From Escherichia coli (GTDB lineage: Bacteria > Pseudomonadota > Gammaproteobacteria > Enterobacterales > Enterobacteriaceae), in assembly GCF_003018255.1 (NCBI RefSeq), contig NZ_CP027440.1: a DNA stretch of 64,000 nt. One strand, given 5' to 3'. Positions 3,001 through 6,000 of the stretch are shown here, piece after piece (position 1 is the stretch's first letter; every line of letters starts with the position of its first letter). The position numbers were made by a program.

Positions 3001-6000
3001 TGGAACCTGCGCCGCACGTGGAGTTTAGCCAGTATACTGGCCTTTCAGAAGAGGTTATTCGCCCACAGTTAGACGAGGCTATCGCTCAGGGTTATCTCAC
3101 AGAATGTGCGGATTACTGGCAGATAACGGAACATGGGAAGTTGTTTTTAAATTCGCTGCTGGAGCTTTTTCTGGCTGAGTAAATTTGTATTGCCGGATGC
3201 GGCGTGTACGCAACATCCGGCTACAACTCTTGCGTCATCGCAAAAATTACTTAATCACCCCATTGCGCCGCAGTTGTTCGGTATCTTTTTTCCAGCGTTC
3301 ATTAGCCTGGTTGATATCGTCAATTTTCATCAAAATCGCGACTTTTTTACTGTTTATTTCTGAAATTTTCATCGTTAACGGATATTGCCCTTTTTCGAGC
3401 GTTACCCAGTCATCCTGCAATTTACGGCTAAGTTTTTGTGATTGCAGAAAAGTCTGTCGCCGTTGTTCGTTGATATCGAAATCTCGCTTCTGCTGAATCG
3501 GCACTTCATAACACTCTTCACTCTGTTTATGACATGCCGCAATCGCCGGTTGATAAACCTCTTTGTCATATTTAACCGCGAACGCCTCGCTATCGTTCTG
3601 TTTATTAAACTCATCACGCTGTTGGTGAATTTTTTTAAAGGCGTCTTCGCGGGTCATTTGCTTACCGTTTGCATCTTTTCCCCAATATGCATCCGCTGCT
3701 TTCTGCGCCGCCACCATTTGCTTATCAAGCGCTTTCACTTCCTTTTCCAGCGCAGGAATCGAGTTCTTCTGGGTATTCAACGCTGATTCAAGCTGACTAA
3801 AGCGATAATTGAAATCTTCGCTATTCACGATCAGATATTTATTATTCGTTTTGATATCGTCGACCACCCGCCCACGATCGCTGGCTGCCGCCTGAAAAGA
3901 GTAAAAGTTCACCGACCAGCCAGACGTGGGCGTTCCTTTACTGGTTAACATCGCCGAGAATTTTACCGGTTTATCTTTCGTCCAGGTCTGTTCGAGCAGT
4001 TCGTAATCTGCCAACTGACCGACCCAGGTATAGAGATCGTCACTGGAAGAGACATCGCCTTCCGCTGACCAGGTGGCCTGATTACCCTTAGCATCAAGAT
4101 TTTTTAAGGTGATGGCATCAAGCTTGAGAATGCCGTGATACTGCTTTTTGAATTGATCTTTTAAGATATTTTCAGTTGGCGGTTCACCATCAGCCCGGAC
4201 ATTACCAGTCATCAACATAAGCAGCGCCGTACCAACAATCCATTGCTTTTTCACCCGAAAACCCTCGCGCGGAATAATTTATTCCAGTGATTATCATCAG
4301 GGTAATAAAAATTGGCAATGGACGTGAGTCTGAAGTGAATAAGCCCCGGCACGATACCGGGGCGAAGTGATTAGTACTGATTGAAGATCTGCTGGATCTG
4401 CTGCGGATCTTTGGTTTGCGTCAGAGCCAGTTGCAGCAGAACGCGCGCTTTTTGCGGGTTCAGCGTGCCGGAGGCCACGAAGCCGTATTTCGCATCATCC
4501 ACTTCAGCATCCTGAGTGGTAGCGCCCGTCGGTACGCGGGAAGAACGCACGACTGCAGTGCCGTTTTTCGCGGCGGTTGCCAGGGTGTCGAACACGGATT
4601 TATACAGGTTACCATTACCCACACCAGCGCTAACGATGCCATCATAGCCCGCATCTACCAGTGCTTTAGCCGGAAGATCGGATGCGTTAGCGTAGTTATA
4701 AACGATGCCGACTTTCGGCAGCTCATTCAGCTTAGAGACATCGAATGGCGTATCGCTGGTGTGCTTACGTGCCGGGGTACGTTGGTAGTCAATCTTACCG
4801 TTGTGAATGTAACCCAGAGGACCGTAGTTAACAGACTTGAAGGTCGCTACGTCGGTGGTGTTGGTTTTGGTGACATCGCGACCGTCCAGTACGGTGTCGT
4901 TCATCACCACCAGCACGCCACGATTAGCGGAGGCTTTATCAACTGCGGTCACTACCGCGTTATACAGGTTGAATGGACCGTCTGCGCTCATGGACGTGGA
5001 CGGACGCATTGCGCCGACCATCACCACCGGTTTGTCGCATTTCACCGTCAGGTCGAGGAAGTAAGCGGTTTCTTCCATCGTGTCGGTACCGTGGGTAATG
5101 ACGAAGCCGTCAGTTTTATCGCAGTCGGTGTTAATTTTTTTCGCCAGTGTCAGCCAGACATCATCGTTCATGTCCTGGGAGCCAATATTCACTACCTGCT
5201 CGCCTTTAACGTTCGCAATGTCCTTCAGTTGCGGCACCGCATTAACCAGATTTTCTACGCCAACTTTACCCGCTGTGTAGTTAGATTTGGTTGCGGAGTC
5301 ACCACCACCGGCAATGGTCCCGCCGGTTGCTAAAATGGTGATATTGGGTAATGCCAATGCTGCACCACTAAAACCCATAACCAGTGCGGCAAGTGCCGTC
5401 TTTTTGAAAAACTCCATTTCATTCCTCCAGTTACGTGAACGCTACGCATTATCCCTTAGCTTTGTATGGGAAATTTGACGTTAAACAATTTACAACGTGA
5501 ATATATTTTGGAGATCTACAAAGTTAGAGGCAGGTAACAAAACGAAGAATTAAACGGCATAAAAAAGTATTATGCCGTCTTAAAATAGAGGATTATTTTA
5601 AATTCCCGACCAGGGCTTTGCGGCTATCTTCCAGAGTCACAACGCGGCTACAAACATCTTTGCCAAACTGCTGGAAATCTTTTTCCTGCTTTTTCCATTC
5701 GGTTTGGATTGAGGATTGCAGACCGCCCAGGCTTCCCAGCACGTTCTGTAATGGGTTACCGCCGCTTTTCAGCACCGCTTTCGCGCCCATTTCATTAATG
5801 CTGTCCTGTAAAATTCCGCCCATTGCCTGATTCACTAATTGCTGGCCTTCGGCACGAACCTGATCAATGGCTTTATAGTGAAACGTCAGGCCATCGCTGC
5901 GCGTTTCGATAATGCGGTTCATCTGCTCTTTCAGCTGCGCATCAAGTTTGGTCAGACGGCTGCGCATTTTGCTGCTTTCGCCCATCTCCTGAACGATAAT

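What the first reader, a model, noticed from the sequence alone, without database searches (positions are those of the whole stretch)
5418..5592. ansB promoter region with an FNR-type box
The sequence TTGTTTAACGTCAA (minus-strand orientation, 5475-5488) sits at an appropriate distance upstream of ansB for a class II activator site, and ansB is known to be anaerobically induced via FNR with CRP co-activation. A CRP site was not confidently located. A hairpin at about 5554-5578 may terminate yggN.
Basis: partly seen in the sequence, partly recalled or inferred. Interest (0 to 1): 0.2.

Follow-up and report, generated by a model that had tools for sequence, protein, structure and literature searches.

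The report
Known E. coli ansB FNR/CRP promoter

Summary
The window is E. coli chromosome (hemW-yggM-ansB-yggN-yggL-trmB-mutY). The 175-bp yggN-ansB spacer differs from K-12 MG1655 by one base.

The box TTGTTTAACGTCAA is exactly at 5475-5488 on the minus strand. A PWM built from ChIP-bound FNR sites makes it the only good FNR match in the spacer: 12.7 bits, about 0.003 expected per 175 bp.

It is identical to the RegulonDB ansB entry centred at -91.5. That fixes the start site at 5440, puts the FNR box at -41.5 (class II), and places the -10 GATAAT at 5448-5453. There is no -35.

Both activator sites are weak, which fits published co-dependence on FNR and CRP.

The hairpin at 5552-5580 is a plausible yggN intrinsic terminator. 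A hairpin sits at the same place in other genera, with different stem sequences. No mapped 3' end was found for it.

One minor extra: the FNR-type half-site (GTCAAA) occurs only in Escherichia. Thirty-four of 37 other Enterobacterales loci examined carry a CRP-type (G/A)TCACA at the same register.

Verdict: real, correctly interpreted, already known, low interest.

The parts
4371..5417 (-). ansB coding sequence (L-asparaginase II, periplasmic), the regulated gene
   Evidence: ORF of 348 aa. RefSeq annotates ansB under 100%-identical matches.
5424..5428 (-). Shine-Dalgarno GGAGG, inside a 23-nt 5' UTR (5418-5440) whose sequence TTCACGTAACTGGAG is strongly conserved
   Evidence: Read. Invariant columns in the 15-genome alignment.
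5440..5440 (-). Transcription start (+1, G), equal to K-12 MG1655 coordinate 3100751
   Evidence: Derived, not measured here. The RegulonDB CRP site centre of -91.5 maps to 5531.5. The position is consistent with the -10 hexamer ending 8 nt upstream.
5448..5453 (-). -10 hexamer GATAAT (-13 to -8); no recognisable -35
   Evidence: ATAAT is invariant in 15 genomes, and (G/C)ATAAT holds the same register in 42 of the 43 sequences compared, all but Budvicia. The sigma-70 consensus scan finds no full promoter. The bases at the -35 position are AAATTT.
5475..5488 (-). FNR site TTGTTTAACGTCAA, centre -41.5 (class II, overlaps the -35 position)
   Evidence: 12.7 bits, ln p -11.0, best in the spacer. 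Identical in 5 of 5 Escherichia lineages.
5501..5510 (-). A/T-rich block AAAATATAT(T) at about -70 to -61 between the two activator sites; partly conserved. Inferred docking region for an RNA polymerase alpha C-terminal domain.
   Evidence: Invariant or near-invariant columns A95, A97, A99 and T100. The function is inference only.
5521..5542 (-). CRP site TTTTGTTACCTGCCTCTAACTT (core TGTTACCTGCCTCTAA at 5524-5539), centre -91.5
   Evidence: Exact match to the RegulonDB entry in Shimada 2011 Table S4. Best CRP PWM score in the spacer, 9.0 bits. TTTTG-TA-C...TC is invariant, and the following TAA is kept in 14 of 15, across Escherichia, Salmonella, Citrobacter and Buttiauxella.
5552..5580 (-). 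Probable intrinsic terminator of yggN: stem AGACGGCATAA/TTATGCCGTTT, loop TACTTTT, then AATTCTTCG
   Evidence: z = -6.2. A GC-rich hairpin followed by a T run sits at the same place, with different stem sequences, in 13 of 14 other genomes.
5593..6312 (-). yggN (DUF2884) coding sequence, the upstream gene; its stop codon lies 12 nt before the hairpin

Best explanation
This is the E. coli ansB promoter, a co-dependent (class III type) activator-dependent sigma-70 promoter. It has a good -10 (GATAAT, 5448-5453) but no -35, so RNA polymerase cannot use it unaided. Under anaerobiosis, an FNR dimer binds TTGTTTAACGTCAA centred at -41.5 and takes the place of the -35 contact, touching sigma-70 region 4 and an alpha subunit. 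When glucose is absent, cAMP-CRP binds TGTTACCTGCCTCTAA centred at -91.5, 50 bp upstream on nearly the same face of the helix, and contacts the other alpha C-terminal domain. That domain probably docks on the A/T-rich stretch between the two sites. Each site is a weak match, so neither protein suffices alone and expression needs both signals. The hairpin at 5552-5580 ends yggN transcription 10 nt upstream of the CRP site, which insulates ansB from upstream transcription. Shown here: the sequences, their positions, their scores, their conservation, and the match to the database record. Taken from the literature: FNR and CRP dependence. Inferred: the polymerase contacts and the role of the A/T block.
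For: Identity of the locus: 100% matches annotated ansB/yggN in E. coli genomes, and one base different from K-12. The promoter segment is present in 5425 of 5426 complete E. coli genomes, at 99% or more in 5116. FNR box: 12.7 bits, ln p -11.0, rank 3 in 64 kb, expected 0.003 per spacer, within the score range of ChIP-bound sites (11.9-21.7). CRP site: identical to the RegulonDB ansB activator site at -91.5, best in the spacer and at the 41st percentile of 54 RegulonDB sites. Geometry: CRP centre 5531.5 and FNR centre 5481.5 lie 50 bp apart. The -10 ends 8 nt before the derived +1. No consensus -35 is found. Conservation: -10, the CRP site and both halves of the proximal site are the conserved blocks of the spacer. 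[quoted passage not shown] Nineteen of 23 directly FNR-activated promoters with a known start have the site at -41.5 +/- 4. Both sites being weak fits two published negatives: no FNR ChIP peak in glucose medium, where CRP is inactive, and no recovery of ansB by CRP genomic SELEX.
Against: No FNR ChIP-seq peak was seen upstream of ansB in glucose minimal medium. The box also falls just below the threshold of the Myers et al. genome-wide prediction, since it is absent from Table S6. CRP alone did not select this DNA in genomic SELEX. By mismatch counts, both boxes are at chance level in 64 kb. The start site is derived from a database offset, not from a 5'-end dataset I could read: the supplements searched did not contain ansB. 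The primary papers could not be retrieved. The CRP PWM scores the proximal 22-mer almost as high (8.5 bits) as the distal site (9.0 bits), so some CRP binding at -41.5 is not excluded.
Confidence: 0.93

Rival explanations
1. The proximal box is used by CRP rather than FNR, as in the tandem-CRP ansB promoter of Salmonella. On this view, anaerobic control in E. coli would be indirect.
For: The CRP PWM gives the proximal 22-mer 8.5 bits, close to the 9.0 bits of the accepted CRP site. Thirty-four of 37 non-Escherichia loci carry a CRP-type TCACA half-site at this register. There is no FNR ChIP peak in glucose medium.
Against: Both half-sites carry the FNR-discriminating T (TTG... and ...CAA), not the CRP G/C. 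The FNR PWM gives 12.7 bits here against 8.3 or less, mostly negative, in the CRP-type orthologues. ansB expression falls in fnr mutants. The literature describes direct co-activation. From my recollection of Jennings and Beacham 1993, converting the site to a CRP consensus removes FNR dependence.
Confidence: 0.04
2. The FNR-like box is a chance match in A/T-rich intergenic DNA with no regulatory role.
For: Forty sites with at most 2 mismatches occur in the window against 32 expected. About one site of this PWM score is expected per 64 kb.
Against: Only 0.003 are expected per 175-bp spacer, and far fewer at exactly -41.5 from a conserved -10. The box is identical in all five Escherichia lineages sampled and is held in essentially all E. 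coli genomes. Regulation is documented.
Confidence: 0.02
3. The hairpin at 5552-5580 is not a terminator but a structural or stability element, or yggN and ansB are co-transcribed through it.
For: The U-tract is interrupted (UUUAAUUCUU). No yggN-associated 3' end appears in the Term-seq tables of Adams et al. 2021.
Against: It meets the stem plus T-run criteria and is much more stable than shuffles. A GC-rich hairpin followed by T runs is kept at the same position with different stem sequences across genera. yggN may simply be too poorly expressed for its 3' end to be detected, because a strong terminator sits 19 nt upstream of its start codon.
Confidence: 0.15

Closest known systems
E. coli K-12 ansB promoter (ansBp; Jennings and Beacham 1990, 1993; Scott, Busby and Beacham 1995; RegulonDB)
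   Same: It is the same locus. The sequence matches MG1655 except for one base at -22 (window 5462, A instead of G). The CRP site is identical to the RegulonDB -91.5 entry, and the FNR box falls at -41.5.
   Different: Nothing of substance. Other Escherichia lineages share the A at -22, so the K-12 G looks like the minority allele.
Salmonella enterica ansB promoter (tandem CRP sites, FNR-independent; Jennings, Scott and Beacham 1993, from memory)
   Same: Same -10, same distal site TGTTATCCATCTCTAA 50 bp upstream of the proximal site, and same spacing to the ATG.
   Different: The proximal site reads ...(A/G)TCACA (CRP type; FNR PWM -9.5 and -11.5) where E. coli has ...GTCAAA (FNR type; 12.5-12.7 bits).
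Class II FNR-activated promoters such as narG, nirB, dmsA, nrfA
   Same: An FNR inverted repeat centred at -41.5 replaces the -35 element.
   Different: Those sites are close to consensus (ln p -13 to -16.5 in Table S6) and bind FNR in glucose medium. The ansB box is weaker (ln p about -11) and depends on an upstream CRP.
Class III CRP-dependent promoters with tandem activators (e.g. acsP2, malE/malK type)
   Same: Two activator dimers about 50 bp apart each contribute a contact to RNA polymerase.
   Different: Here the downstream activator is FNR, so the promoter combines two different signals, oxygen and cAMP.

Membership tests
FNR class II activator site | Inverted repeat matching TTGAT-N4-ATCAA, with T at the FNR/CRP-discriminating first position of each half | tested here: met
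   TTGTT-TAAC-GTCAA is 8 of 10. The PWM gives 12.7 bits, ln p -11.0, within the range of 63 ChIP-bound sites (11.9-21.7). Both halves carry TTG/CAA.
FNR class II activator site | Centre about 41.5 bp upstream of the transcription start | tested here: met
   The centre at 5481.5 is -41.5 relative to +1 at 5440, as fixed by the RegulonDB CRP offset. This is consistent with the -10 at 5448-5453. The start site itself was not measured here.
FNR class II activator site | FNR-dependent, anaerobically induced expression | not testable with these tools
   Published: ansB is scored 'Activated' by FNR in 2 of 3 transcriptome sets (Myers 2013 Tables S8 and S10), with a value of 0.107 in their aerobic/anaerobic comparison table (Table S12; direction of the ratio not checked). 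Reviews agree.
FNR class II activator site | FNR occupancy in vivo | not testable with these tools
   Published ChIP-seq in anaerobic glucose medium found no peak at ansB. The authors attribute this to growth conditions with CRP inactive. No data were found for non-glucose conditions.
cAMP-CRP activator site | Match to the 22-bp CRP consensus (TGTGA-N6-TCACA core) | tested here: met
   The match is weak but the best available. The core is 7 of 10. The PWM gives 9.0 bits, the 41st percentile of 54 RegulonDB sites, best in the spacer, with 0.037 expected per 175 bp.
cAMP-CRP activator site | Agreement with the curated or mapped site | tested here: met
   The 42-nt string given for ansB (CRP activator, -91.5) in Shimada 2011 Table S4 matches window 5552..5511 exactly.
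cAMP-CRP activator site | Conservation in related genomes | tested here: met
   TTTTG(T/A)TA.C....TC is invariant, and the following TAA is kept in 14 of 15 genomes, across six genera.
cAMP-CRP activator site | CRP binding to the isolated DNA | not testable with these tools
   ansB is listed among RegulonDB targets NOT recovered by CRP genomic SELEX. This fits a low-affinity site and does not disprove binding.
Rho-independent (intrinsic) terminator | GC-containing stem-loop followed by a T/U-rich tract, just downstream of a stop codon on the same strand | tested here: met
   Eleven pairs (4 G-C), loop of 7, tail with 5 T in 8, starting 12 nt after the yggN stop. z = -6.2 against shuffles.
Rho-independent (intrinsic) terminator | Structure conserved while the sequence changes | tested here: met
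   Escherichia has ACGGCATAA/TTATGCCGT, Salmonella GGCGTAGAT/ATCTGCGCC, and Citrobacter GGCACAGA/TCTGTGCC. All sit at the same position and are followed by T runs.
Rho-independent (intrinsic) terminator | Mapped RNA 3' end at the tract | tested here: inconclusive
   No yggN 'primary' 3' end appears in the Term-seq tables of Adams 2021. Low yggN expression could explain this.

The most novel reading that the evidence does not exclude
FNR control of ansB is a recent, Escherichia-specific rewiring of an ancestral tandem-CRP promoter. Across the 43 sequences compared (window plus 42 Enterobacterales loci), the -10 and a half-site at the -41.5 register are kept. The half-site reads (G/A)TCACA (CRP type) in 34 of 37 non-Escherichia loci, including Citrobacter, Salmonella, Cedecea, Hafnia, Edwardsiella, Atlantibacter, Serratia and Yersinia. 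It reads GTCAAA (FNR type) only in the window and 5 of 5 Escherichia lineages. One C-to-A change in the right half, plus changes in the left half, would then have moved the oxygen signal onto this promoter. The E. coli versus Salmonella contrast is published. The wider sampling, which makes the FNR state the derived one, may not be.
Probability: 0.7. Interest if true: 0.25.

Novelty: already known. Interest (0 to 1): 0.08.

Why it matters
It matters little for discovery. The ansB promoter is a textbook case of two global regulators, FNR and CRP, acting together, and the window merely contains it. The check is useful as calibration. A reader working from sequence alone placed the FNR site to the base, and the CRP site it missed is a weak match that could not have been called from consensus alone. 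The comparative result is a tidy example of regulatory rewiring by a few point changes: an FNR-type half-site only in Escherichia, and a CRP-type half-site in nearly all other loci examined. ansB also has practical interest as the gene for the leukaemia drug asparaginase and as an anaerobic promoter used in engineered tumour-targeting bacteria.

Tried and rejected
- **Consensus mismatch counts.** Counting mismatches for FNR and CRP boxes over the window gave chance-level totals. They were replaced by weight matrices built from published site lists.
- **Primary mapping papers.** Retrieval failed for Jennings and Beacham 1990 by PubMed id and by PMC id. Failed look-ups under the PMC ids I recalled for Barnard 2003 and Thomason 2015. 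These papers are not held, so the -41.5 FNR position is derived rather than quoted.
- **Genome-wide start-site supplements.** Kim 2012 contains no ansB entry and no Conway 2014 supplements are held.
- **Full-text search for the box sequences.** It returned only irrelevant papers. A numeric search for 91.5 and 41.5 returned noise.
- **Rfam scan of 5200-6600.** It found nothing in the spacer. Small ORFs in the spacer (21-63 aa) overlap the promoter elements and have no support, so they were rejected as genes.
- **Standard sigma-70 promoter with a -35.** None was found.
- **The + strand hairpin at 5386-5399.** It lies inside the ansB signal-peptide codons and faces no gene end, so it was treated as chance.

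Full report
**Locus.** The ORF map around the finding shows a 348-aa ORF at 4371-5417 (minus strand) and a 239-aa ORF at 5593-6312 (minus strand). A 401-bp query across the spacer matches 5415 of 5426 complete E. coli genomes over at least 80% of its length. The best hits are 100% identical and annotated ansB (L-asparaginase 2) and yggN (DUF2884). K-12 MG1655 has the same gene order, hemW-yggM-ansB-yggN-yggL-trmB-mutY. Its spacer differs from the window at one base, window 5462, which is A where K-12 has G. Window coordinate plus 3,095,311 gives the MG1655 coordinate in this part of the window.

- Mismatch counting alone does not make this remarkable. Forty sites in the window lie within two mismatches of TTGAT-N4-ATCAA, against 32.3 +/- 5.9 in shuffles.
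- I therefore built a symmetric weight matrix from the 63 predicted sites that coincide with FNR ChIP-seq peaks in Myers et al. 2013, Table S6. The ansB box scores 12.7 bits (ln p = -11.0).
- That score lies inside the range of the training sites (11.9-21.7) but near its bottom. It ranks third of 63,987 positions in the window.
- In K-12, Myers et al. place the sequences of the two higher-scoring sites inside yghJ and hybC and list both as unbound.
- About 0.003 sites this good are expected in a 175-bp spacer. The next-best 14-mer in the spacer scores -2.9.
- The box is absent from Myers' own list, whose threshold is ln p -10.75. Under their matrix it falls just short.

**The CRP site.** The core TGTTACCTGCCTCTAA (5539..5524) has three mismatches to TGTGA-N6-TCACA, a level seen 189 times in the window against 217 expected.

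- Table S4 of Shimada et al. 2011 reproduces the RegulonDB record. It reads: ansB, CRP, activator, centre -91.5, taattcttcgTTTTGTTACCTGCCTCTAACTTtgtagatctc. That string is window 5552..5511 exactly.
- A CRP matrix built from 54 other RegulonDB 22-mers in the same table gives the site 9.0 bits. This is the 41st percentile of the training set, the best score in the spacer and rank 18 in the window, with 0.037 expected per 175 bp.
- The same paper lists ansB among known targets not recovered by CRP genomic SELEX. That fits a low-affinity site.

**Geometry.**

- With the CRP centre (5531.5) at -91.5, +1 is the G at 5440. The FNR box centre (5481.5) is then at -41.5, and the two centres are 50 bp apart.
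- GATAAT at 5453..5448 occupies -13 to -8.
- The bases where a -35 would lie are AAATTT, and the sigma-70 consensus scan finds no complete promoter in 5300-5700. This is as expected for an activator-dependent promoter.
- Myers et al. note that 19 of 23 directly FNR-activated promoters with a known start have their site at -41.5 +/- 4.
- The 5' UTR is 23 nt, with GGAGG at 5428..5424.

**Conservation.**

- A scan of one genome per species returned 80 loci encoding AnsB relatives.
- In an alignment of 15 upstream regions from six genera, the conserved blocks are the distal CRP site (TTTTG.TA.C....TC invariant, the following TAA kept in 14 of 15), an A/T-rich patch between the sites, both halves of the proximal site, the -10 (ATAAT invariant) and the 5' UTR.
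- I anchored 42 loci plus the window on the -10. The base pattern at the -41.5 register is GTCAAA in the window and in all five Escherichia loci, with an FNR matrix score of 12.5 bits.
- It is (G/A)TCACA in 34 of the 37 non-Escherichia loci, including Citrobacter, Salmonella, Pseudocitrobacter, Intestinirhabdus, Buttiauxella, Cedecea, Hafnia, Edwardsiella, Atlantibacter, Pluralibacter, Serratia, Enterobacillus and Yersinia. The three exceptions are CTCACT (Trabulsiella), GTCACG (a Pluralibacter MAG) and Budvicia, whose -10 anchor is off register.
- FNR scores in those 37 loci are 8.3 or below and mostly negative.
- This reproduces, on a wider sample, the published contrast between E. coli (FNR plus CRP) and Salmonella (two CRP sites). 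I recall that contrast from Jennings, Scott and Beacham 1993 and Scott et al. 1995 and could not re-read those papers.
- The wider sample suggests that the FNR-type site is the derived state.
- Within E. coli, the 106 bp from +1 to the CRP site are present in 5425 of 5426 genomes, at 99% identity or more in 5116.

**Mechanism.** The best-supported reading is the established one.

- FNR at -41.5 substitutes for the missing -35 contact. CRP at -91.5 supplies a second contact through an alpha C-terminal domain. Because both sites are weak, both proteins are needed.
[quoted passage not shown] It also scores ansB as FNR-activated in two of three transcriptome sets, and lists a value of 0.107 in the aerobic/anaerobic comparison table (direction of the ratio not checked).
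- No FNR ChIP-seq peak was seen at ansB in anaerobic glucose medium, which the authors put down to growth conditions. With CRP inactive in glucose, that negative is what a co-dependent promoter would give. It remains a gap.
- The specific protein-polymerase contacts, and a role for the A/T block at 5501-5510, are inference from the known behaviour of class II FNR and upstream CRP sites.

**The hairpin.**

- The terminator scan reports a minus-strand stem-loop at 5580..5552. It has 11 pairs and a 7-nt loop, followed by AATTCTTCGT.
- The 61-nt segment, which also forms a second small 5' hairpin, folds at -16.1 kcal/mol against -3.8 +/- 2.0 for shuffles, z = -6.2.
- It starts 12 nt after the yggN stop codon and ends 10 nt before the CRP 22-mer.
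- In 13 of 14 other genomes examined, a GC-rich hairpin followed by T runs sits at the same place with a different stem sequence. This is good comparative support for a terminator.
- The Term-seq tables of Adams et al. 2021 contain no yggN-associated 3' end, so termination here is not confirmed experimentally.
- The same tables show a very strong 3' end 19 nt upstream of the yggN start codon (window about 6331). That may keep yggN transcription low and explain the absence.

**Other checks.** Rfam finds nothing in the spacer. The only ORFs overlapping it are 21-63 aa and have no support.

**Verdict.** The missing CRP site is located at 5521-5542, and the terminator is plausible. Everything matches a promoter characterised in the early 1990s and curated in RegulonDB, so novelty is nil and interest is low. 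The only mildly new point is the phylogenetic polarity of the FNR-type half-site.

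Noticed in passing
window 6331-6353 (minus strand), 19 nt upstream of the yggN start codon: The hairpin GGCCAGCAAATGCTGGCC plus a T run coincides with a very strong Term-seq 3' end (K-12 3101642, 'orphan', Adams 2021). It is presumably the trmB-yggL terminator. It lies almost against the yggN ribosome-binding region, which raises the question of where yggN transcription starts. The window has G where K-12 has T in the T run.
   Followed up: partly
window 6374-6415 (minus strand): A sub-threshold Rfam match to naRNA4 (37.6 bits against a gathering score of 59.5) lies in the yggL-yggN spacer. The sequence looks like REP (repetitive extragenic palindrome) copies.
   Followed up: no
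window 10100-10403: A cluster of strong CRP-like sites occurs here. It includes the best CRP PWM hit of the whole window (10237-10258, AAATGTTATCCACATCACAATT, 18.9 bits), a one-mismatch core at 10388-10403, and GGCGATGTTTATCAAA at 10100-10115. The last is one base different from the sequence that Shimada 2011 lists for nupG. By K-12 offset this is the mltC-nupG spacer.
   Followed up: partly
window about 10,400 to 62,000: The window is not colinear with K-12. The FNR-like sites that Myers 2013 places in yghJ (K-12 3113665) and hybC (3140281) occur at 28254 and 62070. That is about 9.9 kb and 17.1 kb further along than the K-12 offset predicts, so this strain carries extra DNA in two or more places relative to MG1655.
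   Followed up: no
L002 and L003, about 1385-1440 (Escherichia lineages outside typical E. coli): A 1-bp insertion between the CRP and FNR sites gives a centre-to-centre spacing of 51 bp instead of 50. Both boxes are unchanged.
   Followed up: no
window 5424-5439 (minus strand): The ansB 5' UTR TTCACGTAACTGGAG is almost invariant across six genera. It is more conserved than a Shine-Dalgarno alone would require. A post-transcriptional regulator site is possible but was not tested.
   Followed up: no
window 5462: This is the single difference from K-12 MG1655 in the spacer: A here and G in K-12, at -22 between the FNR box and the -10. Other Escherichia lineages also have A, so the K-12 allele looks derived.
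   Followed up: partly
L048-L069 (Aeromonas loci), about 80 bp upstream of the match start: Aeromonas ansB homologues carry a near-consensus CRP site (GGTGAGTTTTATCACA, one mismatch) and no FNR-like box. This is a different promoter architecture.
   Followed up: no
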